A DNA stretch of 63,969 nt, counting the filler, from Kipferlia bialata (lineage: Eukaryota), in NCBI GenBank assembly GCA_003568945.1. It is 3 parts of 3 records of this genome, joined end to end, with 100 filler letters (N's around TTAATTAATTAA, not from the genome) between each part and the next. Parts side by side here need not be neighbours in the genome. Positions count along the whole stretch, not along the records: positions 1 to 21,490 come from BDIP01000323.1; positions 21,591 to 43,061 come from BDIP01000324.1; positions 43,162 to 63,969 come from BDIP01000353.1. The stretch is one strand, 5' to 3'. The notes under the pieces are model-generated. The model ran no database searches. It was not told where the DNA came from and was given only the letters and a program-made list of their open reading frames with translations. The position numbers were made by a program, and so were the translations under genes. This document shows positions 1 through 63,969 of this stretch, piece by piece (the first letter of the stretch is position 1; the number at the start of each line of letters is the position of its first letter).

Positions 1-916
1 CAGCCCAGCACCTGAGACAGGTACAGTAGTCTCTCTCTCTCTCTCTCTACACCCTTAATCTCCAGGCTGGTGGCATCGGCTTCCTCAGTGAGGACGAGGA
101 GCTCCCTCAGTGTGGAGAGTGTGGCGAGTACGTCTCTCTCTCATTCTCTCTCTCATTCTCTCTCTCTCTCCCATGGCTCCTCTTTTAGCTATTTTGTAAT
201 TTTCCCGGTCTCCCAGTTATCCATCTCTCTCTCTGTCACTGCCTGTATGCCTATAACCCATTGGGGTTTCAGACATTGTTGACCAACAACACCGACTGTC
301 CCCTTTCCCTCTGTCTTATTCTCTAGTCTTTCTCTTTCTCTGTATCCTGACTCCATCCAGGCAAATGGCCCTTGTTGTCCAGCTCAACCTGTCTCAGCTG
401 CCAGAGGATGTCCAGGAGTCACTCAGACTGGGAGATGAAGGTATATATTCATGCACCAGTATACATTAGGATATATATCTGTTTCTTCTATTGTGTTGGT
501 CTCTCCCACTCCAGGCCTCATTCAGCTCTACATGTGCAAGATCGAGGACACCGACTGTGAGACCTGGGAGGCGTTCTCAAGTGCGTGCTCTCTCTCTCTC
601 TCTCGTTGTCTATCTGACGCCAGCTGCTGAGCTGGACCTATGTGTGTCTCTCTCTCTCTCTCTCTGTCTCTGTATATATATATATATTCTTCTGTCTATT
701 TGTCTAATCTGACATCAGCTGCCGAACTGGTCCGGTTTGTACCACCAGAGGACATGGAGAACGCCAGGACCAGGTTATACTCCCTCTCTCTCTCTCTCTC
801 TCTTTCACTCTCTCTCTTTCACTCTCTCTCTTCACCTCTATTACTATAGGGATGATGTGCTCTCTCTCTCGCTTTCTCTCCCTCTCTCCACCTCTATAAC
901 TCTAGGATGATGTGCG

Positions 917-947
<31 letters not shown>

Positions 948-2766
948 ACCGTCTATCTTACTCTAGGGAGGACATCCTGTCTCTCTCCCTCCCTCTCCCC
1001 CCCCCCCTCTCTATCTCCCTGTCGATCTCTATCGATCCATGTTACAATCTAACTCTAGAGAGGATATCCTGTCTCTCTATGAGTCTGAGGACAAGGTGTA
1101 CCGCGAGGCGCCAATCGTGGGGTACGGCTTTCTTTCTCTCTCAGTCTGTCTCTCTCTGTATTTCTCAAATTCAAATGTATATACTTTTATATATATGTAT
1201 CTCTCCCCACACCAGTGTTGTCAAGCGCGCCCAGGACTTCCCCAAGGGTGAGTCTCTATCTCTCTCTCTTTCCCTTCCAGCCTGTCACTCTCCCTCTTCC
1301 TGTCTCGACCTTCAGTGCTATTCATGGAGGATGAGACATATATACTATTACAGGTGTTGGCATAGGTCCTGTTTCCTATCTGCTTTCCCTCCATATGTCT
1401 GGTTACCTCACTCCCACTGTAAGTGAGGATATGAGTCTCGTGGACAGATGGTATTCGCTCTCTCTATGTGTATCCATATCTCTTAGTCTCTCACTGCAGG
1501 TGACGAGATGTCTTTCGGAGTCGACCACAATGACGACATGTACAATGCTCTGGTGAGTTGTGTCACCATCCATCTCTCTCTATCTCTCTCTTTCTCCTTA
1601 TCTGTCCCTCACCTCTGTCTCCTACTCACCTCAAGCACGAGTTCGTCTGGGAGAACGGCGCAACCAGTGGAATTCACGTAGGTACTGCTATCTCTCCGCC
1701 TCTCATTCTCTCTCTGTCTCATACCCACATGATGGGGTGGCTGGTATACATGTATATATATGTATGTATATACATATATTAATATGTCTGTAACATTGAC
1801 CTTAGGTGGATGGTTCAACTGGTGCCAGGGAGTGGAGTACCCAGACTGCCCAGGTGTGTATAGCCGTATTATTATGTAAAGATAGAGAGGAAGTATTAGT
1901 ACAGTATATACATGATATGGGGATTGCAGACATACGGACTACATACACATAATGCAATGGCATTGATCCAGTAGTGTTCCCCTCTTTCTCTCTCTCTCTT
2001 TCCATCTGTCTCCCTCTCTTCTCCCCTTAGAGTGTGAGACCATGGTCGGAACACTCCTCAACATAATACGCATATGCATTCACAAATATACTGTTTCTCT
2101 AACCAAAGTACTATGTATATACTAATCACTAAACACCTTAACCGTTAGAGTGTGGCGAGACCATGACCGGAACCGTCCTCAACATCGAGTCCATTGAGGA
2201 TCAGATTGGTCTCATGTGGGGTGAGTATTAGTGAATATATATACACCCACTCCTCCCTCTCTCTTTCTGTCTCTGTGATCATGCTGGGTTCGATTTCATA
2301 CGTATACATTTCTATATATACATATATACATCTATGTAAGTGTCTTTCGGTTCTGAAGAGATAGTGATCTAATGTAGTGCGTGTATTTCTCTCTAGTTAG
2401 ATATCTATTGGCTACTTTCGTCGGTCTATACCTACCATGTCAATGCATCTTCCTTAGGGAGACACCGCTTGACTAGATTTGACTCTGTTTGACTCTGTTT
2501 GACTTCAGGTGACTGTGGCACCGCCCAGATTTGCCAGTGTCCCAACCACGAGAAGTAAGTAGTCTCTCTCTCCCCCTTCCACTACCCTCCCTCCTTCCCC
2601 CGGTCACCCCGTTACAATATGCTGAGTGCTTTCCTTCACATTACTACCACTCAACAGATGTTCTGGGATACTATTGTTCTCAGGAACTCTTGTTACGGAC
2701 GTAAATTGACTGGTTTGACGTATATTGACCGACAGGGTCCTTGCCATGATGTGGGCATGCTGCTAA
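1..2766 (+). CDS. DUF1963/YwqG-family protein (5' partial), about 13 exons
   Basis: Spliced exons (66-127, 361-440, 515-580, ... 1806-1853, 2149-2221, 2509-2554, 2736-2766) read AGGIGFLSEDEELPQCGECGEQMALVVQLNLSQLPE...GLIQLYMC...GIHVGGWFNWCQGVEYPDCPECGETMTGTVLNIESIEDQIGLMWGDCGTAQICQCPNHEKVLAMMWACC*. The CxxC-M-x3-Q-x-N-L, GGWxxWxQxxEYP and WGDxG motifs match DUF1963 as I recall it. No search was run. Confidence 0.75.
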
Positions 2767-3008: not shown

Positions 3009-5229
3009 TCAAAACGGATTTGGTCCTTCCCCACTTTCAACTCCTTCCCTACCCTCATACACATCCACCAGCATCTATTGATATATATACATATATTGAT
3101 ATACAATGTGCATCCAGACGATACATGGCACATATCATTCATTAGAAGAATAGAGTCTGAGACTCTGACACTGCACTAAAGTAATAATCTAACGTTCAAT
3201 TTACCAGGAGAAAGTACAGTTACCTTCTTGCAGAGCTCGATTGCCTCCTCATGCTTTCCAATCCTCCGGGACAGATTGCTCTGTCGCTTAAGGACCTGTA
3301 GGGTTAGGTTAATACCAATGGACATTAGGAGAGACACATACGAGAGAGATGCTGCTCCGAAAGTGAAGTGACAGGAAGAATCGTAAGTGGACACAACTAA
3401 GAGAATGCCTGCTCCGAATGAATGTCCATAGTATATACAATGTCCACTATACTCGATACCGACCTCAAAGGTGACTGCCGCTGCATCATGGGCCAGAAGG
3501 GCATGCTGAGGGTCAGGTTATGGTATGGAAGTAGTATGACTTCTCAAGCGAGGCATATCAAGACCTTATACACCGATGAATGTAGCTAACAAATACTTGT
3601 ACACTAACCCCTGTCAGGCTGCACAGACGGCACTGGCACTGGAACCCATAGCGTGTAAGGGTCTTCTGAGGTGAGAAGGCCTAGGCCTAAAGAAATGCAA
3701 TGTAAAGAGAAGACTGCCTACATGCATAGCACATAGTCAATGCCACGACCCGACCTGTCTGACTGCCTGTGTTGCATTGCTGTCACAGTATGACACAAAG
3801 AGCTGGTCGCCTGGCTGGATGGGGTATGTGGCCATGAAGCACTGACAGATGAGTGTATAGAGATAGTGTATATAGACAATAATAAGTAATATATCAGCAT
3901 CAGGGAGAATTACATTAGAATGCAAAAGAGCCTTCTGGAGCTTTGTGGTAGAGGATGCAAGAGAGAGAGAGAGAGAGATGTTGGCCATACCATAACCTCC
4001 TCACTGTGGCTCCAGTATCTAGTGAGGTTGGGGAAGCAGCTAGGGGTGAGACCAATTTGTGGTATATCGCGTAACTTATTGTGTGAAAGCGAGGAACCTG
4101 TGGTTGATGCGTGATGCAATGATGCACACACATGCCCCGTCATTGATGGATCCACAGGTACAGCCGAAGCTCTGATATAAGCCACTAATTGAGATAGGTG
4201 AAGGGAGAATGCAATGGGACATATGACGAACGTCGTGATACTGGATAGGTAATCGTGGTGTTGCAATATACTCACGTTGGTGTTTATGATACCAATGTAT
4301 GTCTTGGCCTGGCCTGGCTTCTGGTCTCTATCGTGTAGGGCAGTGAGTTGGGACCTGAAGGGAGAGAGAGAGAAAGAAAGGGAGGAATGGCAACATTGTA
4401 TAAAACTGTATCCTCTTTGTCTCTCTCTCTATATATATATGGAATATTCTAACAAGAGAGAGCAAAGGAGTATAACAATAACACTAAAACTAAGACTAAT
4501 AGTATTGAGTACCTGTCCTCATCTGAGAGATAGAATATATATGTATGGAATGCACATAGAGACGAAGAGAGAACGTACAGTGCACATAGTGATAAAGAGA
4601 GAACAAACAGTACACTTCTATATAGTATATATAGTATATAGACTATATACCCACCTGTCCTCATCTGAGAGACCCTTGATGATGGCTGTCAACTCTGCCA
4701 TGTCAAATGCCTGCTGGTGTGTCAGTATAGGTATACAGTAGATGTCACTCACAGACACTTACAGGTACTGAAGTTACGTTGAGGCATCAGCACGAGAGAG
4801 GTTGGGGGGGGGGCAGCGCGATAGGGGGGAGAGGGGGGCGTACCCTAGGAGCATCGGCAGCACTACTCTGGGGCTTCCCGAAGTGTATCAGGGGACGTTC
4901 TCTGGTATCAGTGTGCAGGGAGAGCAAGTGTTGTTGTGAGTCACAACTTGTGACAGGTGGATTCTTGGCTTTACCAAGAGAAGTCCATGATGCCTGTACA
5001 TACACTAACTGGTACTAAATCCCTCCCTTACCATAAATACACCCATATTCATGATATACGTTCTTGTTGCATACCATTATCCACTGCATGCAAACACATA
5101 TACATAGCGTACTCAATGGCAATACCCTCACCTCAGCACACAGTCCCCCCTCTTGAATGCTCTCTCCGCAATGACGCCCAACCCATAGCCGGGTATGGGG
5201 CACACGCGGATGCCATCATTCTCAACCAT
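3009..5229 (-). CDS. SET-domain lysine methyltransferase, SMYD-like, with post-SET CxCxxC
   Basis: Spliced minus-strand exons give MVENDGIRVCPIPGYGLGVIAERAFKRGDCVL...IINTNSFG...CIIASRINHS|CFPN...MATYPIQPGDQLFVSY...YGFQCQCRLC. All SET motifs are present (GxG, NHSC, GEEL-x-x-SY-like, post-SET Cys). The NHSC motif is split by an intron. The 3' exon assignment is less certain. Confidence 0.85.
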
Positions 5230-44834: not shown

Positions 44835-44871
<37 letters not shown>

Positions 44872-45285: not shown

Positions 45286-45322
<37 letters not shown>

Positions 45323-45864: not shown

Positions 45865-45910
<46 letters not shown>

Positions 45911-46682
45911 GAATACATACATCTCACCCTGCAGGGCCCGTAAGAAGGCCGAGAAGGAGCAGCGTGCCGAGAGGGCCAGGGAGAGAGAGGCGCAGCGGCA
46001 GAGGGAGAAGGAGAGAGAGAAGGAGAAGGTGCCCTCTGACGACGAGGTGTCCTTCAGCCTCAGTGACCTGTTGACAGTGAAGGTCTCGGCAGGTATTAAT
46101 AATTATATTTGTATAGAGAGAGTGTATTTTTACTCTCTCTCTCTATATATATATATATGTACCCATGTCAACACTTTACTCACCCCAGCTGGCACAGGCT
46201 CCCCCTCCCCCTCCCACTCGTCCTCTGTCTCCTCCCGGTCCCAGTCACTGTCAGACTCAGTGTCACCATCAGTACCACCCGATGAGGTATAGACACACAG
46301 TATAATATATATAGTGTGTATAGTTTCATTACATTGTCTCACTTGCCAGGCAGAGAGGGAGAGAGAGAGACAGAGGGAAGAGGCTGACAGGGCCACTGCC
46401 GCAGCTATCGCCGCAGCATCTCGGCCACCACCTAGGAGGTAATGTACTCTCTCTCTCTCTCTCTCCCCCTCTCTAGCCCCTCATTGCAGGAGTAGCAGGA
46501 TAGACAAGGCCCGTGCCCGTGCCTCTAGACCACCCTCCCCAGAGGCAGAGTCATACTCATACTACAGCACATCCACAGAGGTATTGACTCGCGCATCTAT
46601 GTCAACTCATATCTATTTACCCTCCGTGTATACAGTGGTTTTACAAGAGTGTGTCTACTCTCTCTGTCTCGTATTTCTGTCC

Positions 46683-46718
<36 letters not shown>

Positions 46719-47032
46719 ATTTCCTTCCCTCTCCCCCTCTCACCCTCAGTCTGACCGCCCCCCCACCGCCCGTGAGATCAGGGCCCAGCAGAGGGAGGAG
46801 CAGAGGGAGAGGGAGAGGTATGGGTATGTATATATATATATGTCTATAGTATATACATCTGTCTCTCTCTCTATATATATGTTGTATATATACCAGCAGA
46901 GGGAGGAGCAGAGGGAGAGGGAGAGGTATGTACATCATTGACATGGGTCCGGTACACGCTCTAGTACATACCATGTGTCTCCTTTCATATACGTACCCTT
47001 ACCCTCAGGAGTGGCCTCCCCCCTGCCAAGAG

Positions 47033-47072
<40 letters not shown>

Positions 47073-47109
47073 ATATATATACCCCCTCACCCTCAGGAGT
47101 GGCCTCCCA

Positions 47110-47142
<33 letters not shown>

Positions 47143-48136
47143 TACATATATATGTGTATATCTCACCCCTCAGGAGTGGCCTCCCCCCTGTCAAGAGGGA
47201 CAGGTCAGTGCCAGAGGCAGAGTCAAAGGTATACTTCTACATACAACACCCATCATTCAATACCCTATATATCCCCCAGCAAGGCCTCCAGTCCCGTAGT
47301 CTCTCTCTCCCTCTCTCTATTATATGACCACTATGTCAGTGATTGTACAGTGTATATCTGACCCCCAGCCCCCCAGCAAGGCCTCCAGTCCCGTGGTGCC
47401 CAAGGATGCACCCAAGGGGAAGGGCAAGGGGAAGGTATAAGTATACAGTGTCGTATTCATACAGATGTTGTATGCCATTAACCCTAGGCCCCTTCCCCTG
47501 TACAGGCCAAGAGGGAGACAGAGAGGGAGAGGCCTGTCCAGGCTGCCAAGAGGAGACCACCAGCTAGGAAGAGGGGGAAGGTACAGTATTACATGTAGTT
47601 TGAGAGCGATAGACATACTATTCCTCTACTCTACTCTACCTTCACCCCAGGACGTTGAAGAGACCGTGTCTGTCTATGTATACTGTATGTTAATACACTA
47701 TATCTTCTTTATCTCCTAAATTCCTCCCTTCACCCCAGGACGTTGAAGAGACCGTCGCCCCTTCCTCTCCCATAGTGCCCCCGGCCATGGCTAGGTGTGT
47801 GGTATATAATGTGTATTATATATAGTGTATATATACGATATATCGTAGTGCCACCGTCCATGGCAAGGTACTCTCTCCCTCCAGTTCATGGGGTGTATAT
47901 ATTTACTCTGTTTACCCCCAGGCGTGTTGCCAAGGCTCGCGCAGAGAGGGAGAGGGAGAGGGAGAGAGAGAGAGCCAAGCAGAAGGTCAGGACCAGGGAC
48001 ATGGGCATAGGGACCAAGCCTGCAGAGACTAAGGTATATACACACATGTGTATACTATTATGTATATGTATATGTATACTTTGGGTCCTCTCTCTCTCCC
48101 CCTCACATCTACAGAATGTGTCCTCTGTGGCCGTAC

Positions 48137-48180
<44 letters not shown>

Positions 48181-49544
48181 ACATATATATATAGACTTAT
48201 CTTTCCATCTCCCTCCCCCCAGCATGTGTCCTCTGTGGCTGTCCCATTGGGTGTGGACAGGGAGAGATACTACAGGATGGTGGCTGAGGTACGGCTATTT
48301 ATGTACCATGTCAGAACTCTACTTGTGTTGTTGAGTACTGTGTGTGGCCGTTCATTACGTCCTGATCTTAGGGCTTATGAGTATCGTGTATTCATTATAT
48401 ACTCTCTCTCCCCACTCATTCCTAGGACATGGCCCTCCCCCACTCCCTGGCCCTGTCCTTGTAGTATATTAAATATAGTATAGATAGTACACTATACATA
48501 TATTATATATCTGTGTATCCTAACCCTCAGGACATGGCCCTCCCCCACTCCCTGGCCCTGTCTCTGTCACAGCATGTCACACCCCTGGGCCAGAGGGCTA
48601 GGAAGGTGTGCTAGTGTTGGAGTATTGTGTATATCTATATTTGTGTAGGTTAGTATACATACACCATATATATATATCACACCCCTGGGCCAGAGGGCTA
48701 GGAAGGTGTGTGTTGTGGATCAGTATTCATACATAATCATCTGTGCCCTGTGTGTATATATATACTCATCTATCTCTGATACCCCAGGACAAGTGCCCTG
48801 TGTCCAAGTTCCAGCTTGGGGTGTGGAGACTGCAGAAGGAGCAGGTATATATTAGTGTGTGCATTGATTATCTGATACTATATATGTACATTGGGAGATT
48901 GACAGAGTGCGGGAGACAGAGAGAGATAGAGTATGTGTGGAGACTGCAGGAGGAAATGGTATGGATAGAGAAGTGTGTACTCATATATATATAAATATAT
49001 ATATATACTTCTCACCCTAGATCATGCACTCCCTCGAGAACAGACTGGCCCTCCTATCCCCCTCCCTGGTGCATCTGGCCAAGGCAACACTCTGCCCAGG
49101 TATATATATTTATGTGTATACATGTATGTATGCAAGTATATGTATATACTGTATGAGTATATATATACATATCTATTCCCCTCCCTGGTGCACCTGGCCA
49201 AGGCAACACTCTGCCCAGGTATTAATATATATGTGTATACATGTATGTATGCAAGTATATGTATATACTATATGAGTGTATATATATATATATATATATA
49301 TATCTTTCCCCCTCCCTGGTGCACCTGGCCAAGGCAACACTCTGCCCAGGTACTGCTGTATGTATACATAGTGTATATATATATATATATACTCAGGTAT
49401 TGCCACATATACATCGGGTGTATATCTGTCTTTCTATCCATCTGGCCCTGCTGCTGCTGTATATATGTGTGTATATGTTTGTGTAAATATCTCTGTGGAT
49501 GGACGCCAACCCCGGGCCTGATCTCTGCCCACTCCGACCGCCTA

Positions 49545-49589
<45 letters not shown>

Positions 49590-52500
49590 ATGTTCATATA
49601 CCCCTCTCTTACCCCAGGCCTGATCTCTGCCCACTCTGATCTCCTTGGCTATGCCCCTCCCCTGCACCAGCTGGCAGGGCATGGCGGGAATGAGGTAATT
49701 ATATGTATATATATGTATATACACCCACCCATACATAGATACCTAACTGAAAGTGGGAAGATTGGGGTAGTGGCGGGAATGAGGTATTGACAGGATACTT
49801 CTATCTCTTTATATTGAGGAGGGAATGTGGTATCTGTCTCTCTCTCCCTCTCTCCCCCTCTACCCCCTTATTCCAGCTGACCAATGCCCTGTCCACCCTC
49901 GAGACACACGGCATAGAGATGCTAGGTACTATACTGGATATACATATATATATATATAGATATATATATAGATATGAGGTTATATCAATACATGTGTGTG
50001 TATTATGCCCTGTCCACCCTCGAGACCCATGGCATNNNNNNNNNNNNNNNNNNNNNNNNNNNNNNNNNNNNNNNNNNNNNNNNNNNNNNNNNNNNNNNNN
50101 NNNNNNNNNNNNNNNNNNNNNNNNNNNNNNNNNNNNNNNNNNNNNNNNNNNNNNNNNNNNNNNNNNNNNNNNNNNNNNNNNNNNNNNNNNNNNNNNNNNN
50201 NNNNNNNNNNNNNNNNNNNNNNNNNNNNNNNNNNNNNNNNNNNNNNNNNNNNNNNNNNNNNNNNNNNNNNNNNNNNNNNNNNNNNNNNNNNNNNNNNNNN
50301 NNNNNNNNNNNNNNNNNNNNNNNNNNNNNNNNNNNNNNNNNNNNNNNNNNNNNNNNNNNNNNNNNNNNNNNNNNNNNNNNNNNNNNNNNNNNNNNNNNNN
50401 NNNNNNNNNNNNNNNNNNNNNNNNNNNNNNNNNNNNNNNNNNNNNNNNNNNNNNNNNNNNNNNNNNNNNNNNNNNNNNNNNNNNNNNNNNNNNNNNNNNN
50501 NNNNNNNNNNNNNNNNNNNNNNNNNNNNNNNNNNNNNNNNNNNNNNNNNNNNNNNNNNNNNNNNNNNNNNNNNNNNNNNNNNNNNNNNNNNNNNNNNNNN
50601 NNNNNNNNNNNNNNNNNNNNNNNNNNNNNNNNNNNNNNNNNNNNNNNNNNNNNNNNNNNNNNNNNNNNNNNNNNNNNNNNNNNNNNNNNNNNNNNNNNNN
50701 NNNNNNNNNNNNNNNNNNNNNNNNNNNNNNNNNNNNNNNNNNNNNNNNNNNNNNNNNNNNNNNNNNNNNNNNNNNNNNNNNNNNNNNNNNNNNNNNNNNN
50801 NNNNNNNNNNNNNNNNNNNNNNNNNNNNNNNNNNNNNNNNNNNNNNNNNNNNNNNNNNNNNNNNNNNNNNNNNNNNNNNNNNNNNNNNNNNNNNNNNNNN
50901 NNNNNNNNNNNNNNNNNNNNNNNNNNNNNNNNNNNNNNNNNNNNNNNNNNNNNNNNNNNNNNNNNNNNNNNNNNNNNNNNNGTATTATGCCCTGTCCACC
51001 CTCGAGACACACGGCATAGAGATGCTAGGTACTATACTATATATATGGATATATATATATATACATTTATATGTGTATATGAGTGGGGGTATTATGCACT
51101 GTCCACCCTCGAGACACACGGCATAGAGATGCTAGGTACTGTGTGTAGTGTACATACGTCTCCTCAGACATACATTATTCTTATGTGTGTGTGTATTATG
51201 TCCTATACCCTCGAGACACAGACATAGAGATACCTCTTGGGTATATATATCAGATGAATATATTCATATCATCTTCTAGACTCTGTCTATACCCTCTGAC
51301 CCCAGGTGGTGCCAGGGTTGGCAGACAGCCACTGCCGGAGGGGCCAACAGAGGGAGACGTGTACAGGTGGGTGTATGTGTATATAGTATATTAGGAGACG
51401 TGTATAGGTATAGTAGAGTGGGGTGCATGTATATCCATATACACAATATACTATATAGTATATAGTGTATACTGCCGGAGGGACCAACAGAGGGAGACGT
51501 CTACAGGTGGGTGTAGACACATATATAGATACTGTCAATATATATATGTATATATACTCTCAACTGCATATATTGCAATCTCATATGCATGAGGGAGACG
51601 TGTACAGGTATACAGCATATGGACATGCATACCCCCACCTGTAACAAGTCGTCTCTCACCCTCTCTCCCCCACCCCCACCCCCAGACTGGGCCTCTTGAT
51701 CCTGGCCCTGGTCACACACCTCAGGGTGGGGCAGGTATGGAGATGTAGATACACCGCACGTATACATTGTATACGTGCTCATGTACATTCCCTGTACTTG
51801 TACCCTTATTCTCCGTTGGACCCTTATTCTCTGCTGCACTCTTATTCCCAGGCTGCTGAGGAAGAGGCCCAGCGTGAGATTGAGAGAGAGATAGAGGCAG
51901 ACAGTGAGACTGGAGATGAGGCCAATGAGAGTGTGCCTGTATCCCCATGGCAGGCTGTGCTGGAGAAGTCGGGGGTGAGTACACACACTCATATGTCAAT
52001 GATAAACTGTATCAACAATTGTAATTAGGTAATAGTATCAATATATACATGTGTCATCTACTCTCTCTCTCTCTCTTTCTCTCTCTCTTACTGTAGGCCC
52101 TCCTAGACCGTGTCTCCCCCCTGATCACCTCTCTCTCTCACTCCAGCCCCTCCTAGACCGTGTCTCCCCCCTGGTCACCTCCCTGCACCAGAGACACCAG
52201 AGGCAGAAGAGATACACAACACTGGCATCTGGTGTCTCTACTCCTAATGAGAGTGACAGTGGGAGTGTGCCTACACCCATGTCCACCCTGCACGCCCTGG
52301 CAGACCTGGGAGTATGGGTGTCAAGGTAAACATATGTACTATGCTATGTTATGTATATATATATATATTTATATACACCCATGTCCACCCTACATGCCCT
52401 GGCAGACCTAGGGTCTGGGTGTCAAGGTACACAATGTACTATTGTTTACAACTGGAGTGTATGTGTGTGTAGTATGTATGCATCCACACGTCACTGACCC

Positions 52501-52772
52501 CAGGTACCCAGGATCCCTGCTGTGCCAGGAGAGTGTGCTAGGTAGGGGTATAGTGATACTGTATTTCAATACTTGTCTAGGGATACCTCATACCTACATC
52601 TCTCTCTCTATCTCTCTGTCCCTCTCTATAGTCTAACCCCAGGCTCCCTAGACCTCTACCCCCACTACCCTGCATCTAGGCTCAACCCTAAGACAGAGAG
52701 AGTGGGGGAGAGAGAGGGAGAGAGCACTCAGAGAGAGGCTCTGGAGTTCTCACTCCTCTTCAGCAAGGTATA

Positions 52773-52809
<37 letters not shown>

Positions 52810-53906
52810 ACCCTTATTCTAGGTCGAGACCGCCAAGGTTGCTGAGAAGCAGAGAGAGAGAGAGAGGCGTCTGGAGGCAGAGGCCAAGGTGCAGAAGAGT
52901 GGGATGCCCATATTTGGACAGGTGAGTGTAATTGGGGAGTCACATAGAGGGAGAAATGTACTGGTTATCTATAGCTCGTTAAATTTACTCTGTGTCTCTC
53001 TCACCCTTAGGAGGAGTCGGATTCCCTGACGTCTGAGGTAGAGAGGCCCACCAAGACCTGTGATGCCCCTGCTGCTAAGGCACCTGTGAGCACTAGCAAC
53101 CCATCTACCATGGAGGTGGAGGTGGATAGGGAGGGAGAGAGAGAGGCAGAGGCAGAGGCAGAGGAGGAGGCTGGGTCAGAGTCCTCTGTGTCTCAGCCGG
53201 TGCCCAAGGCACTAGGGGTGGAGATGGAGGGAGAAGCAGAGAGAGAGAGAGAGGCAGAGAAGGAGGTGGAGGCAGAGGAAGAGGTACAGATGGAGACAAC
53301 ACCCGTCGCTGTCGGTGAGGCCGAGAGACAGACTGAGAGGGAGCCAGAGGGGGAGAGGCACCTTCGCAGGTATAGTGTCTCCTTCATCCATGTGTATGCA
53401 TCTGTATCAGTATTTATATATCTGGCCTCACCCCTCAGGTTCTTCTCCCTCCCCCCCTCCCTCGTGTCCTGCCTCTCTCTCTCTCCCCCTCTCCCCCTCT
53501 CTCTGCCTCTCTCTCTCTCTCTCCACTCACCCCTCAGGTTCTTCTCCCTCCCCCCCTCCCTCGTGTCCTGCCTCACCTCCTGGGTCTCAGTCACATACCC
53601 CTCCCTGCCCACCCCTGAGGCACACTCGCTGGCCAAGGCACTCGAGGAGAGGTATGGTACATGGCCGTCTCCATGCACCTTCTCTCTCTCTCCCCCCCTC
53701 TCTCAACGTATATAACCCTCAGATTCGGCCGTCTGCACACCCCCGAGCCCACCCTGTCCGAGGAGGGAAGGGAGGCCATACTGCAGGAGGTACATATATA
53801 TAAAAATACATATATATATATATATATGTAGTATTAGTATATATACGTATACCCCGAGCCCACCCTATCAGAGGAAGGGAGGGAGGCCATACTGCAGGAG
53901 GTATGG

Positions 53907-53938
<32 letters not shown>

Positions 53939-56900
53939 GCATATGTGTCAGTTAGTACTATTAGTATATATGCGTATACTCCCGAGCAGACTATGTCTTA
54001 AGAAGGGAGGGAGGCCATACTGCAGGAGGTATGTTTTATATAGATAGATCGGTTGAGATACAGAGAGTGTATATAGAATATACTCTATATATATATACTA
54101 TTCTAACCCCGTAGGTTGAGTCTGTTGCCCTTAGACAGGACGCAGAGGCAGTGGAGGACAGGGAGAAGCTGGAGGTAGGAGTATATGTGTATTGATAGAC
54201 TTGCGTTGATACTCATACACATGAGTACCCTATAGATGTATGCATATATATTTGTGTTTATATTCTCATATGGCCCCTCCTAACCGCAGGCCCTCCGTGT
54301 TGAGCTGACATCTGAGGTACATGAATACAGTAATATGTCGATGCTGCCTTTGTATGTATACTTGGTATATATGTACATACTGTAACCATTAGGCCCTCCG
54401 TGTTGAGCTGACGTCTGCCGAGGAGGAGGAGAGAGAGGGTCTCAAGGAGATTCAGGAGAGACAGGCCGAGAGGGAGAGAGAGAGAGAGAGGAAGCAGAAG
54501 GAGAAGGAGGAGAGAGAGAGAGAGAGCGATGCTGTCAAGGCTGAGGGTAACCCTGGGGTAGTAGTAGCTATCGAGGGGGAGAAGAGAGAGGGAGAGGGAG
54601 AGAAGGTTGAGACCCCCGCTGCTACTGAGACCTCTGCTATAGCAGCACCTGATGTACCTGCTGTACCTGAGGTTGACAGTGAGACAGAGGCAGAGGTGGA
54701 GAGAGAGAAGGAGAGGGAGAGGGAGATGGCAGTCAAGACAGCCAGGCTCAAGGTACATGGCTCTGTCTGTGTATGTATCTGTGTATGTAAATATACACAC
54801 TTAGGTCCTGCTCTCTCTCGCTATATATACAAGTATGAGTAGATATACATCCTTACCCCCTAGGCCCAGGTCTCTGTCCGTCAGACCCTTCTGTCCAGTG
54901 GGCCCAGTCTGCAGCAGAGGGTGGTGCGTATGCATGTATATATATATAGACTATACATGTATGCATGTGTATAGAGAGAGAGAGAGTAGCCAGTGGGCCC
55001 AGTCTGCAGCAGAGGGTGGTGCGTGTATGTGTGTATATAGAGTATAGAGGAACATTTGATCTATTCTGGTGTTCTTCTGGTATAGTATACTATTCTCTCT
55101 CGCTCTCATCCTAGGCCACCCTCCCCCTCCCCCCCTCTGGCTCCCTCCTGTCCCTGTCCCACATGTCTCATTCTCTCTCTCTCTCTCTCTCTCACTCTCT
55201 CACCATATAGGCTACTCTACCTCTACCCCCCTCTGGCTCCCTGCTGTCCCTGTCACATATGTCCGAGAGGGCACTGCTCACAGAGACACTGGCCAAGCTA
55301 GAACCTGTTCTTGTCCCAGGTTAGAATATATGTATTTGTGTGTCTATGTATATATATACCTGTCTAACTCCCAGTGTCCCAGGAGACTGACTGGCTGGGC
55401 CTCACCACGGCACTGCAGAGGCTCTCTCAGGCATGTCTCTCTCTACTCTATATATTGTATCTCTACCTATGTGTATCTACATATTCCCTCTTACTCCAGC
55501 CCCATGCCAAGGCCATCCCTCTCTCTCTCTCTGTCTCTCTCTATACTCAATATGTATATATATGCTATTATATAGTTGTTATGTATTCATACCCTCTGAC
55601 CCCCAGCCCCATGCCAAGGCCATCCCGGCACCCAGGGCCATATTCGGAAAGGTATGGATGGAATCATAAGAATTATTTCCATTGTGTCTACCAACATACA
55701 TATTTCTACTGTGTATTGTACTAATTCTGTATTCTTGTGTACCATGTACGCATCCCTCACCCCCAGGTGATGAGGGACCAGTATCGGTATGTATCAATCT
55801 ATAAATGTATATCCATATAAGTACCCCTCCCTCACCCCCAGGTGATGAGGGGCCGTGGCAGGGTCGGAGAGGCAGAGGTCATAGCCAGACAGGTATGTTT
55901 ATGTATGAGTATATGTAGAGGAATATATCTATATATAGAGAAGAACAGAGAGAGAGAGAGAGAAAGAGAGGGTGGGAGAGGCAGAGGTCATAGCCAGACA
56001 GGTGGGTGTGTATAGTGAGAGTATGTACTCANNNNNNNNNNNNNNNNNNNNNNNNNNNNNNNNNNNNNNNNNNNNNNNNNNNNNNNNNNNNNNNNNNNNN
56101 NNNNNNNNNNNNNNNNNNNNNNNNNCGAGAGAGAGACAGAGAGAGAGGGTCGTAGAGGCAGAGGTCATAGCCAGACAGGTATGTATGTAGTAGTACGATA
56201 ACATAAAGAAGCGGATCTGCTATCTTAGTCCAATGCTCTCTCGCATATCTATCTATATATATAATGTGTTTATACTGCAACTCTCACCCTCCAGGCCGTC
56301 CTGTACCGCTATGGGTGCCGTCTCCATCCGTCCAGTGCACTCAGCACATACATCCTGTGTCTCAGTGGAAAGCAGGTACTAGTGTATAAAATGTATATAT
56401 ATATATAGTGTCCTCAGCACATACATCCTGTGTCTCAGTGGCAAGCAGGTACAAGTATATGGACATTGTACACAGTATCTGCACACATATTATGGTGTTC
56501 AGTGACAAACACGCTCTCTCACACCCACCTATTCTCTATCTATCTGTTGGTTCTTCCCTCCCCCTCTCTCTCCCTCTGTCTGACCCCCCAGGGCTGGAAG
56601 AAGCTAGTGGCCAGGTTTGGTAGTCAGGCACTGACACAGACTCACCTACAACAGGTATATAGACAGATAGATATAGAGAGTAGATGTATATAAGTATGGG
56701 CATCATCCAGTATCCAGTCCCTCTTTCTTTCCCTATCTATTCCCTCACCCCAGTTCTACAACTGGATCATGCAGTACCCAGCTGCCATCATGGTCATAGC
56801 CACCTGGGAGATACTGGATAGGTGGGTATATATATGTGTGTATAGTCTGGCTCTTGCTCCCAGTGAGTCGGTCAAGAAGGCCTGACTCTCACTCTCTCTC

Positions 56901-57401
56901 TCTTTCTATACCCTAACCCCAGTGCGTCTGAGTCTGTCAAGAAGGGCATGACCCTGACAGCAATGCAGGAGGCACACAGCGAGAGGTGTGTAGATATATA
57001 TATATCTACATGTATTGGAGCAAATCTCTCTCTCTCCCTCTCTCCCCCACCCCAGGTCTGCCTCCAAGCCATCCTCGCCCACCAAGGGCAGCCCAGGGTA
57101 CGGTACAGTTAGCTATCATGCAATACATGCAATACCACTCCTCATATAGTGTATGTGCACTGATACTATTATCCTCATCCCAGCTATGCTATACCACTCC
57201 TATATATTCTGTATATATTCTGATATTACTGTCCTCACCCCCAGCACCGACCAGGACGGGGACGTGTCCATGGGTGGAGAGGGTGAGTGCATCTGTCTGT
57301 GATATATGTATATGTGTGTGTATATAATAGGGTGAGTGTGGTATGGCGCATTATACATGACACGGTTCATACATTGTAGTGTATATGGAATATACATAAT
57401 C

Positions 57402-57438
<37 letters not shown>

Positions 57439-60400
57439 CACATACATATATATATATATCATATATACACTGTACACATACCTCACCCCAGTCAAGCCCA
57501 GACCCAGGGGCCGACCCCGCAAGGTGCCCCCTCCGCCCCAGGCACAGCAGAGTGCAGACGGGTGGTGGACCCAGGTGTGTATCATATATATGAGACATAT
57601 ATATATACTCTGTATGAGTACAGTGTGTATATTGTGTGTATAAGTGTACCCTTAGGCACAGCAAAGTGCAGACGGGTGGTGGACGCAGGTAGATATATTG
57701 AGACTCGTATGTGTATAGTTGTGTATTGTATCTATTACTAATCTGCTAGGTCCAGAAGCCCACTCCTGTGGATGCCGATAAGGATGCCGATAAGGATACC
57801 GACAAGGAGGGAGAGAAGGATGGAGAGACTCCCAACACCCCCAAGCCAGCAGCCGAGGCAGAGGCAGAGGGAGAGACCGACAGTGACAACAAGGAGAGAG
57901 AGAAGCAGACAGAGGAGAGAGTGGTCACAATCGAGAAGGTGCGGTAGATGACTCTCTCTCTCTCTCTCTCTCAATGACCCACATACATATACACCTCATA
58001 TATATATATATGTGGTATCTATATATTTTGTACTTACCCTCACCACTCAGGACCGTGGGTGTGCCTTCTCCGAGCCCCTCAGCCATCTCTACCACCCCAT
58101 GGAGATCGTCAGGTGTGCATTCATTATATATATATATATATGTGTGTGTGTGTGAAGTATTATATTATTTGTAATAGTATAGCCATCTGTACCACCCCAT
58201 GGAGATCATCAGGTGGGTGTATATACATACACTCACTATGTATATATCAGTGCACACAGGGTTCACATCAACTATAGCTCTATCCATCATCTATGTATAT
58301 GTACCACCCCATGGAGATAGTCAGGTGGGTATACATGCCAATATACATATATATATATATATATATGAATATTCATCAGGTGGGTGTATATGTACGTGTA
58401 TATACTATGTGTACTACCCCATGGAGATTGTCAGGCATGAGTGTGTGTGTATATATATGTATGTGTGTGAGTGTGTGTGAATATTGACAGTATCTGACCC
58501 CCCAGGCTGTGCCGTGCCAGGGAGACACCCAGGTGGAGGGACGCACAGGTAGGTTACATATATAGTATATATACGATATGTAATCCAGGTACTATGTCAA
58601 CTTCACCCTCTCTCTCTATATATATACCTTTCTCTATGCATGTCTAACCGCAGGGCCTGACCGACCCCCTCTCCACCCTCGATAGGCAGCTGGAGAGAGA
58701 GAGACAGGGAGAGAGAGTATATAGAACATGGGCATGGCTCTCCGACAAGAGCCTCAGACGTGAACTGGGTACGTGCCTCTACACCCTATATTCTCTCCTC
58801 CTACACCCTTCATTCACCCCCTAGAGATGCACTCTCCGTTCTGTCGTGTGGTCAAGTCTCGCATCCTGCCCCCCGTTCCCATGTCTCTCCCTCTCTCCTT
58901 TGTTAAGGGAGAGAGAGATGGGGGGGAGGAGAGAGAGGAACAGGAAGAGGGACAGAGCGGGTGGGAGAGGGAGAGAGAGAGAGAGACTGCTAGACTGCAG
59001 GAGCTCGAGAGGCGGAGGGAGAGACAGCCCGTCGCTAGGTGACTACGAATACTCTCTCTAGCTTTCTATACATATACAACTATTGCTAGTATCCTGACCC
59101 TAGGCTGCCTGCCTCTCTGGCCTACCTCAAGCACCGCCTCACCCTGTTGGCACCCATCCTGTGGCCAGCATGCAGGGTGTGTATATATAGCAATATCTCT
59201 ATCTATGTATATATGCAGGGTATGTATCAGATGGATGATACTACTATATTAAATATACTAGTAGTACATTTGTATTATATATAGAAAGGGTACCCATCCT
59301 GTGGCCAGCATGCAGGGTGTGTATACACTATACACTATACATAGAGAGAGACTGCAGGGTATTTATAGGCGTTTCTATTCTCTGTTCGTCTGTATATGTA
59401 TGTGTGCATGTACTCACCCCCAGGTCATTGGCGACACCACCCTCCTCCATGGCTACATTGCACTGGGGCTGGATGCTCAGAGGTAAGGATACACTGCATA
59501 CAAGGACACTATATATATGTATACATATATACATATGAGTGTATTGCACTGGGTCTGGATGCTCAGAGGTACACCTCATATGTATTTGATACTATATATA
59601 TGTGAGTGGAGAGATGGTACTATCTTAAGAATAATGTATATACATATATGTCTCACTGGGCCTGGATGCTCAGAGGTACCCCTAGTAGCATTGTCAGTGT
59701 ATGATACACATGCCTTATATTCATACGTGTATTCCTTATGCATGTGGGTGTGCCACTCACCCAGGCTGTCCTCTTGCGACACCTACCAGTGCAAGATACA
59801 ATATATATACATTGTGTATTTGAATATATATATATACCCCTCACTCTAGGCTTGCCTCTGGCGACACCTACCAGGCCAAGGACAAGGGGGCCAAGCTATC
59901 CCTGGATGAGGTATATATAATAACATATATATATAATTATATTCATAAATTTGTTATGGATACTATTGTCTCTCTCTCTACACCCTCATTCTCAGAAGGC
60001 CATCCGCCGTGCCTGTGACCTGACCCAGTTACTGGCCCACTCCCACTCCCCCACCTTTGCCACTGCACCCTTTGCAGCTGTGGTGTGTAGGTGCTTGGCC
60101 CTAGGGGCTATGGCACTGCCAGCAGGTATGTGTGTATATATAGATATGTATGTATATATATACATATTTGTACCCTTTGCAGGTATTGTATGCAGTTGTC
60201 TGGTCTTGTACTCTTTCTAGAGTTGTCTATGGTTCCTTATATATGGATACTTACATACATACACATTATATTTTCGCGTTCGGTAGGCTGTTGTTATAGA
60301 AGCTCTCGCTCTCTCTCGCTCTCTCTCTGACCCCTCCAGGTGTCTCTGCCCTCCGCCCCCCCTCGGACTCCATCCTGGCCCACTACGCATACGCTAGGTA

Positions 60401-60652
60401 CATGGAGAATACATTGTATTTCGTATATACACTTGCTTATGTCAGGGACCTTCTACAGACCTCGTTAGTAATATATACTCAATCCCTCCCCCTCTCTCCT
60501 TGTATGTATGTATACACTTACCCTCAGAGACCTACTTCAGACCGCGTGTCTCCTCCCCTCCACCGATGATGAGGGGGAGAGGGAGAGGGCCAGTGACATC
60601 AGAGAGATGCACACCACACTCACCCTCTTCAACAAGTGTCTGAGGTGGGTAT

Positions 60653-60692
<40 letters not shown>

Positions 60693-63600
60693 TTCACTTT
60701 TCTGTAAATGTATACTTATAATCAGGATAGCCCACCTTGTTGCCCAGTACCCCATCCTCCTGGTAGCCTATACACCCAACCCCTTCAGAGGGGGGGAGAC
60801 AAAGGGCATCAGAGCCACACCCAGGTGGGTGGAGTATATATTACATATGATAGATAGTACATTCAATAGTGTAAGTTGGGTAGAACCTAGGTGAGTGTAG
60901 TCTGATAGCCACTTCTCTCCAATACGTCTCTGCTTCCATCTCTCACCCCAGCTACGTCTACAAGTGCCTCTCCTCCCTGGTCTCCAATACTTCTCTCTCT
61001 CTCTCTCCCTCCCTCTCTCTCACCCTAGCTACGTGTACAAGTGCCTCTCCTCTCTGGTCTCCAACAGATTTAGAGAGAGTGCACCGGAGACACCCGCCGC
61101 AGAGTGGGAGAGAGAGAGAGACAGGGAGAGAGAGAGACAGCGCCTCTGGAAGGAGCCAGTGGCAGACAGAATGGGCAGGTACTCTCTCTCTCTCTCTAAT
61201 GCTACACCCTTATCTGTTTCTGTCTACACCCCTATTCTCACCCCTAGAGAGAAGGACAGGGAGAGAGAGACTGCAAGAGAGATACAGGCTCAGACCAAGA
61301 GGGAGAGCGAGGTACCATAGCACTAATTTGTCTCATCATACTTTCTCCGGCTCTCTGGCGCTCGGTGCTCAAGAGTAGGTAGTCTCTCTCTCTCTCTCTG
61401 TATACACCCTTACCCCTAGCGCTGTGTCCTCTGGAGAAGATGGTCCTTCCTGGAGGACTTCGATGGGTCAAAGGTACATTGACCTCTCAATATACCCATA
61501 TATATATGTGTGTGTGTGATTTACTAACCCCCAGCTCCCTGAGTTCTCTTCTCCCATGTACATCTCTCTCGCTCTCTCTCTCTCGTCTCGAAATGTCTAT
61601 AACGTCCTCTGTCTCTTACCCTCTAACCCCAGCTGCCTGAGTTCTGCTCCCCCACCCCCACCCAGGCAGCCACCCTGGCCAGGCTGTACAAGGTATGTGT
61701 ATGTGTATGTATATATATAATAGTATATTGAATGGTTGCTCTGTTTGGTATAACTACATACGCTTTGCGTTTATACTGGAGTGTATCTGTTCGTGTACGT
61801 CCCTCACCTCCCCAGCGTGCAGACCGTGACAGAGAGAGGGAGAGAGAGAGACACGTCGCCCAGTCCAAGGCAGAGGGGGAGAGAGAGGACGGCCTCATCA
61901 CTGGACGCACTCTGGTGAGTATATACTCTATATCAGTATATATATATAAATATATATAGGAGTAGTTCTTCCGTACCTTATGCCCCTCTATCTCTCTACA
62001 TACATATATTCCGTCTAACCTCTAGGAGCTGCGTGATCTGTCCCCCCTAGTGATGCATGGTCAGGACAGGGAGAGGGAGAGGGACCTCTACCCAGAGAGA
62101 CAGACCGGCAGGTAGGGATATTACGTATACAGATGCATATGTATAGAGAGGGGGAGAGAGACAAACCGGCAGGTGTTGACATATGTAAATACATACATGC
62201 ATATGCTAATGTGTCTCATGTGCACTTCGCAGACAGTCTCTCAATCTCCCCTCTCTACCCCTCTTATCCTAGGCTTGGTGAGGGCGAGGGTGACGTTCTC
62301 TCCAACATGCAGTCTGTGTTTGGCAGCTGTCTGGGGGTGGAGGTGGAACTAAGGAGGTACATACTAGTAAGTATAGTCCACTATGTATATATATATATAT
62401 ATGTATGTATATGTAGTCTGTCTTTGGCAGATTAGAGTAGTATAATCGGGTTCTCTGTGTTTGTCCCCCTTCTCTTCTCACCCCCCAGACGTGTTGCCCA
62501 GCTGGTACCCATAGCACATGCCCTGGATGACATGCTAGGTGTGTTCACATGTCACTATATATACTCAGTATACATACGGTAGTACAATTACTGTGTATAC
62601 TCTATAGTATGTAATACACATGCCCTGGATAATATGCTAGGTATTCATGAAAGGATACATATACTACCCTGACCTATACCTCCCTGGTATATACTGTCTC
62701 TCCTTATCTCAGGCCTTGTCTTCTTTGTCCCCCTTGTGACCAGACACTATGGCACTGCCCCTGTCCCTGTCATGCTGTCACAGCCCATAGAGGCATGCAT
62801 GGGTGTGGGAGGAGAGGGGGAGACTGGTAGTGGAGATGTGGCCATGGATGGAGGCGAGGGGGAGAGAGAGAGCAAGGGGTCTGAGAGAGTCAACCCCACA
62901 GCCAGACTACTGGCCATGTATCTTAGGTACTAATCTCTCTCTCTCTCTCTCTCTGTATCATTCTCTCTAACCTCTAGGGGCTCCCTCTGTGTGTCCCACT
63001 TCGAGGGTGGCTCTGTCCCACTGGCATGGACAGTGCCAGAGGGGGGTAATCAGGTATATATATATATGTATATATATGTATATATACAGATATATGGGTG
63101 TATATGTATATAGGTATATATGTACTCTGTCCCACTGGCATGGACAGTGCCGGAGGGGGGGAATCAGGTATATATACATTGATTCATAGAAATATGAATA
63201 GTATTATGTACTTGCATCCATACTGTGTCATATCCTCACCCCCTCAGGACACTGTCCCTGACCCCAAGAACGGTGCAGCCTGCATAGCACATGGCATGAA
63301 GGAGCTAGGTACTGCGTCCCCTCTCTCTCTGCATATCTCTACCCCATCTCATTCCTTACCCAGCCCCCTCCTTCATAGAGGGTGTGCAGCATCTATCTCT
63401 CTCTCTATCTTCCTCTGCACCCTATTTGTATATGTATTATATATATGTAGACTAACTCCAGCCCCCTCCTTTATCGAGGGTGTGCAGCGTCGCTTCCGCA
63501 CCCCCGACACATACATGTACACCATGGTACATGCACTGATGGAGCACAGCCTGAGTATGCAGCCAGACGATGGGCTAGGTATGCATGAACATGTATATAG

Positions 63601-63969
63601 AGTAGTATATGTATGTAGCATGTACTTTGAGTCCTTGGTGCTCACCTCCAGCCCCGTACCTGTCCACATTCTATTCTGAGACAGAGGGAGAGGGAGAGAC
63701 TGATACTGAGACAGAGACTGAGAGAGAGTCCCGCCGCATGGACTCCCTGCACCTGTCTGCATTCATAGCCAAGCACCCACTCATACTGGTGTGCAGGCAG
63801 AGACAGGTATTTGTAGTTCTATTCATATTTACTATTATATCCAAAGATCTCACCAACAGGACTCCTACCCCCACCACTATGTCTCTCTCTCTCTCTCTCT
63901 GTACACATACCTAACCCCAGGGCTCCTACCCCCACCACTCTGTCTCTCTCTCTGTCTCTCTCTCTCTCT
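43244..63969 (+). CDS. very large hypothetical protein, dozens of short exons, one AT-hook-like motif; partial at both ends
   Basis: Exons join in frame from MADDSSDDSLLGLVT|ANLNIPKEAPKKKK|... onward where I checked. The N-terminus is basic/ER-rich, KPRPRGRPRK lies at 57492-57523, and later exons are helical and Leu-rich. An acceptor precedes ATG 43244 and no stop was seen before the window end. The model spans N gaps at 50036-50981 and 56032-56125. Confidence 0.65.
49059..49352 (+). repeat. three copies of exon 3' end + donor
   Basis: ccctccctggtgcaYctggccaaggcaacactctgcccag|gta occurs near 49060 (true), 49179 and 49310, separated by TA-rich spacers. Confidence 0.95.

What the first reader, a model, noticed from the sequence alone, without database searches (positions are those of the whole stretch)
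600..63969. Pervasive 'splice-junction echoes': introns are built from serial copies of their own flanking exon-intron junctions
Seen: dozens of introns on both strands, in three unlinked scaffolds, contain 1-4 copies of 20-50 nt spanning a true junction, with consistent polarity. Donor echoes (exon end+GT) lie just downstream of the real donor, e.g. 43555-43845 x3, 44505-44705 x3, 49059-49352 x3, 53741-54031 x3, 55866-56180 x3, 58090-58436 x4, 59461-59678 x3, and on minus 40637-40995 x4. Acceptor echoes (branch+AG+exon start) lie just upstream of the real acceptor, e.g. 841-1080 x4, 46995-47190 x3, 53427-53575 x2, 60940-61065 x2, and on minus 42001-42377 x5, 39545-39795 x3, 38500-38720 x3. 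Echoes often end where exon sequence resembles the intronic (CT)n/(TA)n/(CA)n. Inference: microsatellite-primed slippage or unequal exchange repeatedly duplicates junctions and inflates introns. The frame is kept only if the spliceosome takes the outermost donor and acceptor and ignores near-perfect decoys, or removes the intron stepwise. I do not know of this being described as a genome-wide intron architecture.
Basis: partly seen in the sequence, partly recalled or inferred. Interest (0 to 1): 0.9.

Follow-up and report, generated by a model that had tools for sequence, protein, structure and literature searches.

The report
Introns stacked with rival splice junctions
In two intron-rich genes of what is likely a free-living protist, about half the introns hold extra copies of a neighbouring exon edge with its splice signal; the RNA seen skips them, and their differences are mostly silent, so they were likely picked up from other working versions of the same gene by misaligned recombination.

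Summary
The echoes are real: 79 junction copies in 48 of 97 modelled introns, against about 0.08 expected by chance. DNA contigs run through them at full depth. One spliced RNA contig matches the outermost-site mRNA letter for letter in length (525/525), over a 2.3-kb test stretch only. They are not window-wide: 48 of 87 introns in two genes, 1 of 53 in nine others. The architecture is known: amphioxus "mirages" and the human F7 intron-7 repeat. This scan also noted it before on other DNA (sea urchin, fungi). What is new is the history. Echo and true exon differ at 71 synonymous and 30 non-synonymous sites (pN/pS 0.14); self-copying predicts about 41% synonymous, and 70% is seen. The intron sides look almost unrelated yet keep GT (42/44) and branch+AG (31/36). 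So the echoes were most likely working junctions of other versions of the gene (alleles or homeologs), captured by misregistered recombination, not slippage copies. Echo donors are as strong as true ones, and skipping them points to exon definition despite ~100-nt introns. The organism (Kipferlia-like) is inferred from composition only.

The parts
43241..63969 (+). Echo-rich gene: 76 modelled exons, 2259 aa open frame, no family found; 37 of 75 introns carry echoes (gapped scan)
   Evidence: first 9 exons matched by RNA contig
37613..42574 (-). Echo-rich gene with a WW domain (41961-42032): 13 modelled exons, 339 aa; 11 of 12 introns carry echoes
   Evidence: PF00397, E=4e-7
66..2554 (+). Gene with 11 modelled exons; 2 of 10 introns carry echoes
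43554..43928 (+). Donor array: true donor 43587, echo donors 43709 and 43841 (both GT). RNA skips all 342 nt, although 43841-43928 would be an ordinary 88-nt intron
   Evidence: DNA contigs at depth 414-472 through the spacers and 867 on the repeated 36-mer
44501..44938 (+).
44907..45157 (+). Donor echo 45030, identical to the exon end over 32 nt, preceded by (GA)n, unrelated intron side
46785..47200 (+). Intron 46818-47173: one donor echo (46926), two acceptor echoes (47009, 47097)
49054..49640 (+). Donor array 49100/49219/49350, one of few with an alignable intron side, plus acceptor echo 49516 with lost AG
53741..54035 (+). Donor array 53790/53901/54029; the 49-nt echo differs at 4 sites, all synonymous
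55100..55265 (+). Acceptor echo 55115: 53 nt, 8 differences, all synonymous
58081..58440 (+). Donor array 58113/58213/58325/58435; one Ile codon is read ATC, ATA and ATT in different copies
59457..59875 (+). Intron 59483-59849: donor echoes 59569 and 59676, acceptor echo 59765
42000..42390 (-). Five acceptors (42375, 42278, 42180, 42113, true 42032): exon side identical over 31-33 nt, at least three different branch/AG tails
40637..40995 (-). Four donors (true 40953; echoes 40840, 40742, 40637)
38480..38725 (-). Acceptor array; echo 38709 reads TSSPSATSVYASS against true TSSPSASVYASS (silent changes plus an in-frame codon)
   Evidence: codons read by eye
37660..37940 (-). Acceptor echoes 37924 and 37817: 4 + 4 differences, all synonymous
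838..1080 (+). Acceptor array reading DDVLSL / decayed / EDILSL against true EDILSLY (conservative amino-acid changes)
   Evidence: call 54E
2019..2184 (+). Acceptor echo 2031 reading CETMVGTLLN against true CGETMTGTVLN (in-frame codon loss)
   Evidence: 54E
4500..4660 (-). Single donor echo (4512) in a neighbouring automatically modelled gene

Best explanation
The echoes are real tandem copies of one exon-intron junction that the mRNA seen skips, and each is likely a once-working junction from another translated version of the same gene (an allele, or possibly a homeolog), brought in by misregistered recombination. Shown: the copies, their tandem DNA, outermost splicing in the 2.3 kb tested, mostly synonymous exon-side differences, and intron sides that are very different but keep splice signals. 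Inferred steps: (1) Alleles keep similar exons, while their (TA)/(CT)-rich introns diverge until only exons can pair. (2) A break in an intron is repaired from the other version through the exon on one side; synthesis overshoots the far junction by about 25 nt and is joined to the broken end without homology, which seeds the first echo. (3) Later out-of-register exchanges between an echo and another haplotype's true exon end add or remove units of about 100 nt, each time importing a fresh working exon end and intron end; this would also explain echoes of one array sharing a breakpoint. (4) Echoes then decay neutrally and are young compared with allele divergence. (5) Splicing tolerates them because each exon is defined by its nearest acceptor-donor pair (exon definition, or first-donor scanning), so the site attached to the whole exon wins; mis-spliced forms may also be degraded.
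For: Synonymous 71 of 101 differences; neutral expectation conditioned on substitution type 26.7, self-copy expectation 41.1; deduplicated 67 of 97; holds for donors, acceptors, both long genes and sites more than 3 nt from the junction. pN/pS 0.14, 95% bootstrap by array 0.08-0.23, 56 arrays. 74 of 107 differences at codon position 3 before the two drops; shifted frames give only 13 and 12 synonymous of 101. Forward simulations through the same detector: self-copy 0.40-0.42, allele capture 0.71-0.75, observed 0.70. No substitution makes a stop. No drift towards intron composition: 42 GC>AT against 34 AT>GC on about 60% GC. No age gradient in arrays: nearest echoes 25/524, farthest 22/455. Echo acceptors keep AG and a branch-like motif in 31 of 36, median 8.2 bits against -7.7 for other intronic AGs, yet match their own true tail at only 0.55 (unrelated 0.44); echo donors keep GT in 42 of 44 (acceptor figures include one hit dropped later). 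Tails within one intron are still related by descent: 9 of 46 pairs against 198 of 19655 (acceptors), 3 of 66 against 51 of 21462 (donors). Echo donors are as strong as true ones (6.06 against 6.09 bits; true stronger in 21, echo in 17), so position decides. RNA skips a ready-made 88-nt inner intron. In eight introns with both echo kinds the inner pair spans 83-166 nt, like ordinary introns. Metamonads lack NHEJ and rely on homologous recombination and alternative end joining (PMC8516963 passages).
Against: No second allele or strain was seen: DNA contigs show no other letters and run unbroken through four exons, so this sample is haploid or homozygous here, and two metagenome scans found nothing. 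Intron sides are far more diverged than pS 0.14 predicts, and do not track exon-side divergence (rho -0.08, n=61; of 18 echoes identical over at least 20 exon nt, three score 15 or more on the intron side). This needs an added, untested assumption: hypermutable introns, constrained synonymous sites or exon-only conversion. Changes private to one echo are 17 synonymous of 31: above neutral (P=7e-4) but not clearly above the self-copy model (P=0.09). Synonymous divergence is not significantly over-dispersed (P=0.14), which also fits one hybrid event. No microhomology signal at breakpoints (P=0.29). True acceptors are stronger than echo acceptors (12.4 against 8.2 bits, p=0.01), so strength may partly explain acceptor choice. 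RNA evidence is one contig over eight introns; contigs drop rare forms. 68 of 76 echo-site products would carry a stop or frameshift and could be degraded.
Confidence: 0.62

Rival explanations
1. Same capture process, but the donors were homeologs or paralogs (a hybrid or a duplicated gene about 14% diverged at silent sites, later collapsed), not alleles segregating in a population.
For: Explains the synonymous bias equally well. No significant over-dispersion of pS among 62 echoes. Echoes cluster in particular genes.
Against: Up to four or five versions of one junction with at least three distinct intron ends need several donors or rounds. 23 of 62 echoes have no synonymous difference while others have 4-8.
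Confidence: 0.15
2. One reading: microsatellite-primed slippage copies the gene's own junction, and the copies are neutral decoys whose intron part scrambles quickly.
For: Echo-rich genes have TA-rich introns ((TA)4+ 6.5-8% against 0.6%). (GA)n is enriched before donor echoes (6 of 44, p=4e-4). A few units are alignable throughout (49100/49219, 42033/42279). Private changes do not reject it alone (P=0.09).
Against: Synonymous share 0.70 against a simulated 0.40-0.42, 0 of 150 runs in each of three settings. Branch+AG is kept in different sequence forms while the flanking intron is scrambled. No age gradient; no microhomology signal.
Confidence: 0.07
3. Self-made duplicates held in shape by gene conversion with the true exon, or by second-order selection because collapse between copies puts an echo back into the exon.
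For: Would keep exon sides similar while intron sides drift. Shared breakpoints in arrays.
Against: By my reasoning, conversion within one chromosome gives pN/pS of about 0.5, outside 0.08-0.23, and cannot preserve branch motifs that differ in sequence (2 of 36 tails identical over 12 nt). Collapse fast enough for selection would not leave time for intron saturation (inference).
Confidence: 0.07
4. Echoes work now, as alternative or mutually exclusive mini-exons or as steps of recursive splicing.
For: Splice signals are kept. The three acceptor echoes with a usable downstream donor give in-frame pieces of 27, 18 and 24 nt. 26 of 28 exons before donor echoes end in AG (55 of 69 elsewhere, p=0.14).
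Against: Only 1 of 44 donor echoes and 3 of 35 acceptor echoes have a partner site, no more than background rates give. The RNA contig includes none. Recursive removal would not put echoes under codon-level selection.
Confidence: 0.06
5. Assembly artefact: alleles of a heterozygous or mixed sample were stacked in series.
For: The echoes look like alleles. N gaps fall inside two arrays. X1 may be the data behind the window.
Against: A separately assembled 278-nt contig spans true donor, spacer, echo, spacer and second echo. Spacers are at full depth (414-472) and the shared 36-mer at double depth (867). A 765-nt contig crosses four exons unbroken. Tested over 2.3 kb only.
Confidence: 0.03

Closest known systems
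Amphioxus 'mirages' (Adh3, globins BflGb6/BflGb9, troponin C, PGBD5): PMC3087553 (passages and supplement 4 read), PMC3902484 (one passage)
   Same: Tandem units spanning one exon-intron boundary, at 5' or 3' boundaries; many keep AG/GT; normal splicing is undisturbed; unequal crossing-over proposed; unit 150-160 bp in globins.
   Different: Mirage units are minisatellite-like (81-100% identical in BflGb6, intron side alignable by eye in the supplement) and reported from a handful of loci, with mechanism called unclear. Here over half the introns of two genes carry them, intron sides are mostly unalignable, and exon sides show coding selection. The lineage is likely a protist.
Human F7 IVS7 37-bp VNTR, PMC1557585 (abstract only)
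   Same: Repeated donor sites that are functional but silent; the most upstream donor is chosen by position.
   Different: Pseudo-sites are identical repeats in one intron and donor-only. Here acceptors are also repeated and the last one is used, which 5'-to-3' scanning alone does not explain.
Intron gain by tandem duplication (Rogers model; PMC3265369 and PMC4974935 seen in search listing only)
   Same: A local duplication containing splice signals is silent at the mRNA level.
   Different: No new intron is made; an existing intron grows by a unit holding half a junction.
One-sided invasion / synthesis-dependent repair with end joining, and inter-allelic minisatellite turnover (recalled; search gave no direct paper)
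   Same: Proposed route for seeding and growing the arrays.
   Different: Not shown here; no breakpoint microhomology signal was found.

Membership tests
Mirage (junction-spanning tandem repeat) | Tandem unit spans one exon-intron boundary | tested here: met
   79 echoes in 48 of 97 introns; null 0.08
Mirage (junction-spanning tandem repeat) | Occurs at both 5' and 3' boundaries, many units keep GT/AG | tested here: met
   GT 42 of 44, AG 31 of 36
Mirage (junction-spanning tandem repeat) | Normal mRNA is made | tested here: met
   One RNA contig, eight introns, 525 of 525 nt; other arrays untested
Mirage (junction-spanning tandem repeat) | Minisatellite-like similarity over the whole unit, intron part included | tested here: not met
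   Intron side exceeds the 95th percentile of unrelated introns in 7 of 44 donor and 5 of 36 acceptor echoes. Filed as a variant that works like a mirage.
Mirage (junction-spanning tandem repeat) | Copy number differs between haplotypes or cells | not testable with these tools
   One sample, contigs only
F7 IVS7-type junction VNTR | Most upstream of equally strong donors is used | tested here: met
   Joint 43584>43927 skips two GT echoes; strengths equal
F7 IVS7-type junction VNTR | Pseudo-sites identical in sequence | tested here: not met
   0 of 44 echo donors match the true donor over +3..+14
Tandem / mutually exclusive exon duplicates | Copy has both an acceptor and a donor | tested here: not met
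   1 of 44 and 3 of 35, at background level
Recursive splicing | First step regenerates a splice site at the new junction | tested here: inconclusive
   Acceptor side not met (3 of 29 start GT); donor side 26 of 28 end AG against 55 of 69, p=0.14; no lariat data
Intron gain by tandem duplication | Duplicated segment is spliced as a new intron | tested here: not met
   Echo units lie inside existing introns and are removed with them
Exon definition | Nearest acceptor-donor pair across the exon is chosen over a shorter inner intron | tested here: inconclusive
   Fits the RNA (88-nt inner intron ignored), but decay of mis-spliced forms and stronger true acceptors are not excluded
Kipferlia bialata (source organism) | Sequence identity to named Kipferlia proteins | tested here: inconclusive
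   Three protein searches found no hit. GC 49.7% and 2.6 modelled introns/kb against 49.4% and 2.45/kb published.

The most novel reading that the evidence does not exclude
In this lineage introns grow and turn over mainly by capturing whole working junctions from divergent alleles. One genome would then be a stacked archive of past haplotypes (silent divergence about 0.14), giving direct evidence of homolog exchange in a free-living metamonad, where sex has not been observed. It would also need exon definition by a reduced spliceosome on ~100-nt introns.
Probability: 0.35. Interest if true: 0.85.

Novelty: new variant of a known kind. Interest (0 to 1): 0.68.

Why it matters
First, it offers a mechanism for mirages, whose origin was called unclear (PMC3087553), and a simple test for any genome: pN/pS of echo against exon. 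Mirages are reported from amphioxus and were noted by this scan in sea urchin (unchecked); both are highly heterozygous outcrossers (recalled), which is what allele capture predicts. [quoted passage not shown] Third, hundreds of natural strong decoy sites make splice-site choice testable. Intron definition is held to predominate in fungi and most protists (PMC2397502 abstract), and K. bialata keeps only 87 of 174 spliceosomal proteins searched (PMC6679479); the RNA here ignores a perfect inner intron. Fourth, gene predictors read echoes as mini-exons, as my own first model did, so intron counts for such genomes may be inflated.

Tried and rejected
No whole genome is held for the window, so nothing genome-wide was tested. 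RNA and DNA contigs could be laid on 43240-45540 only; the other arrays have no read evidence. No run is on record as RNA; X2 is taken as RNA because its GT..AG joints are absent from X1. The tool lists a joint 45025>45154 that seems to use the echo donor. I rejected that reading: the echo is identical to the exon end over 32 nt, the record leaves exactly 39 letters between the flanking pieces (44-nt exon less 1 and 4 overlapping letters), and echo use would add 91 nt to the 525. The joint for intron 44534-44894 is not listed and rests on the same arithmetic. Protein searches gave no hits; the Atlas could not read the sequence; Pfam matched 1 of 18 pieces (WW). Two metagenome pattern scans were empty. 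'Kipferlia' + 'introner' gave 0 papers. Rejected by test: microhomology at echo ends; age gradient in arrays; avoidance of 3n unit lengths (23/20/33 of 76); random import of intron ends from unrelated introns (same-intron ends are about 19-fold more often similar); (CT)n after acceptor echoes as special (18 of 35 against 11 of 33 ordinary 3' parts, p=0.15). The original Adh3 mirage paper was not listed by my searches and was not read; it may already discuss alleles. I did not count synonymous changes in the amphioxus alignment.
Full report
Setting. The window is three scaffolds joined by N-linkers. GC is 49.7% and there are about 2.6 modelled introns per kb. These match published figures for Kipferlia bialata, 49.4% and 2.45/kb (PMC5874029, section 12), which I first suspected from recall. 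Three protein searches found nothing, so the identity is an inference. No whole genome is held.

Gene models. An automatic model read many echoes as mini-exons. I curated by hand, keeping only exons with both a branch/AG acceptor and a donor. This gave three stop-free frames: 76 exons/2259 aa, 13 exons/339 aa with a WW domain and 11 exons/207 aa, 97 introns in all. Thirteen further regions were modelled automatically and not curated.

The observation. An ungapped scan anchored at each junction found 45 donor and 36 acceptor echoes in 49 of 97 introns, against 0.08 expected from non-adjacent exons and 1 wrong-polarity hit. After dropping two doubtful hits, 79 echoes remain in 48 introns. Echoes are 26 nt at the median. 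Units are about 100 nt (10-90% range 74-123), the length of an ordinary intron here (median 103), and make up 43% of the bases of gap-free curated introns. They cluster: 48 of 87 introns in the two long genes, 1 of 53 in nine others, whose introns have ten times less (TA)n. Polarity follows from geometry and says nothing about mechanism.

Real DNA, and which site is used. On 43240-45540, DNA contigs of X1 pass from the true donor through both spacers and echoes, with depth 414-472 in unique parts and 867 on the repeated 36-mer; a 765-nt contig crosses four exons without a break. This rules out stacked alleles here and shows one haplotype in the sample. X1 may be the data behind the window, so it is independent in assembly only. 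The X2 contig is spliced. It skips 342 nt from the first donor past two GT echoes, and 206 nt to the last acceptor past a short AG echo below my threshold. Its span equals the outermost-site model, 525 of 525 nt. Two further echo-bearing introns rest on that length arithmetic, not on listed joints. One contig cannot exclude rare forms.

The unexpected part. Identity is mostly 0.8-1.0 over the first 20 exon bases and falls to near the unrelated-intron level a few bases into the intron. Yet GT is kept in 42 of 44 donors and branch+AG in 31 of 36 acceptors, usually in a different spelling from the true site. On the exon side, 71 of 101 differences are synonymous in the gene's frame, against 13 and 12 in shifted frames. 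Neutral decay predicts 27, and self-copying with a selected original predicts 41; pN/pS is 0.14 (0.08-0.23). Simulations through the same detector give 0.40-0.42 for self-copy and 0.71-0.75 for capture from a selected version. Older echoes missed by the ungapped count show conservative substitutions and in-frame indels (calls 54E, 58). Some echoes also show decay: lost GT or AG, and small frameshifting indels. Changes private to one echo are less biased, 17 of 31, which is weaker evidence and fits a mix of inherited and later changes.

What this means. An echo has only one splice site (partner sites 1 of 44 and 3 of 35, at background, 54B), so it cannot normally be translated where it lies. 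Its codon-level conservation must date from a time when it was a working exon end on another molecule. Intron ends within one array are still related by descent, so the donors were versions of this same gene. I infer seeding by one-sided homologous repair with overshoot, then growth by out-of-register exchange between exon-end copies; many arrays share a breakpoint (33/33/33/31, 42/42, 27/27). Metamonads lack NHEJ and lean on recombination and alternative end joining (PMC8516963 passages), which fits but proves nothing. The main unexplained point is why intron sides are saturated at pS 0.14, even beside identical exon sides. Alleles and homeologs cannot be told apart here.

Splice choice. Echo donors equal true donors in strength; echo acceptors are somewhat weaker. 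One rule covers both polarities: take the nearest acceptor-donor pair across the whole exon. Intron definition would pick inner pairs of 83-166 nt, and the RNA ignores an 88-nt one. Decay of mis-spliced RNA is the rival, since 68 of 76 such products carry a stop or frameshift. Sense-strand (CT)n never precedes a donor echo (0 of 44 against 23%), as expected if live acceptors there are purged.

Known relatives. Earlier notes of this scan led me to amphioxus mirages, confirmed in PMC3087553 and PMC3902484, and to F7 IVS7 (abstract). The architecture and silent splicing are therefore known. Those units are homogeneous repeats at a few loci. My ten searches listed no report of this density, of a protist case, or of a coding-selection signature; the original Adh3 paper was not read.

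Verdict. This is a new variant of a known kind. Confidence is about 0.9 that echoes diverged under coding selection and 0.62 for the full allele-capture account. Interest 0.68.

Noticed in passing
window 48, 45320, 52807, 59979, 61203, 61225 (+): A shared intron 3' motif, (CT)n then ACACCCTYA and the acceptor, recurs in unrelated introns on two scaffolds, some only 51-70 nt long; possibly an introner-like family or an extended splice signal. A metagenome scan found no match.
   Followed up: partly
window 55431 (+): A GC-AG intron is needed to keep the frame of the long gene.
   Followed up: partly
window 54290-54316, 63364-63381 (+), 39786-39763 (-): The only three acceptor echoes with a usable donor give in-frame pieces of 27, 18 and 24 nt: candidate nascent mini-exons, as in the mirage intron-gain model.
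   Followed up: no
window 12672-19472 (-): A 2266-aa uninterrupted frame with long internal repeats and a likely membrane anchor near its end; no Pfam family and no homolog found.
   Followed up: partly
window 44970-45000, 54980-54990, 55945-55968, 56126-56145 (+): (GA)n tracts, rare in ordinary introns here, sit right before 6 of 44 donor echoes (p=4e-4); this mirrors (CT)n after acceptor echoes on the other strand and may be filler added at the join.
   Followed up: partly
window 21441-21490, 37449-37480, 43015-43061, 43179-43195: Scaffold and gap edges end in long C runs, a likely cause of assembly breaks.
   Followed up: no
window 57125-57245 (+): A duplicated intron 3' end with almost no exon part and an alignable intron side, unlike most echoes (seen).
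   Followed up: no
window 36000-50000 and 52000-63969: CpG observed/expected is mostly 0.2-0.35 in the echo-rich genes against 0.4-0.7 in most of 1-36000.
   Followed up: no
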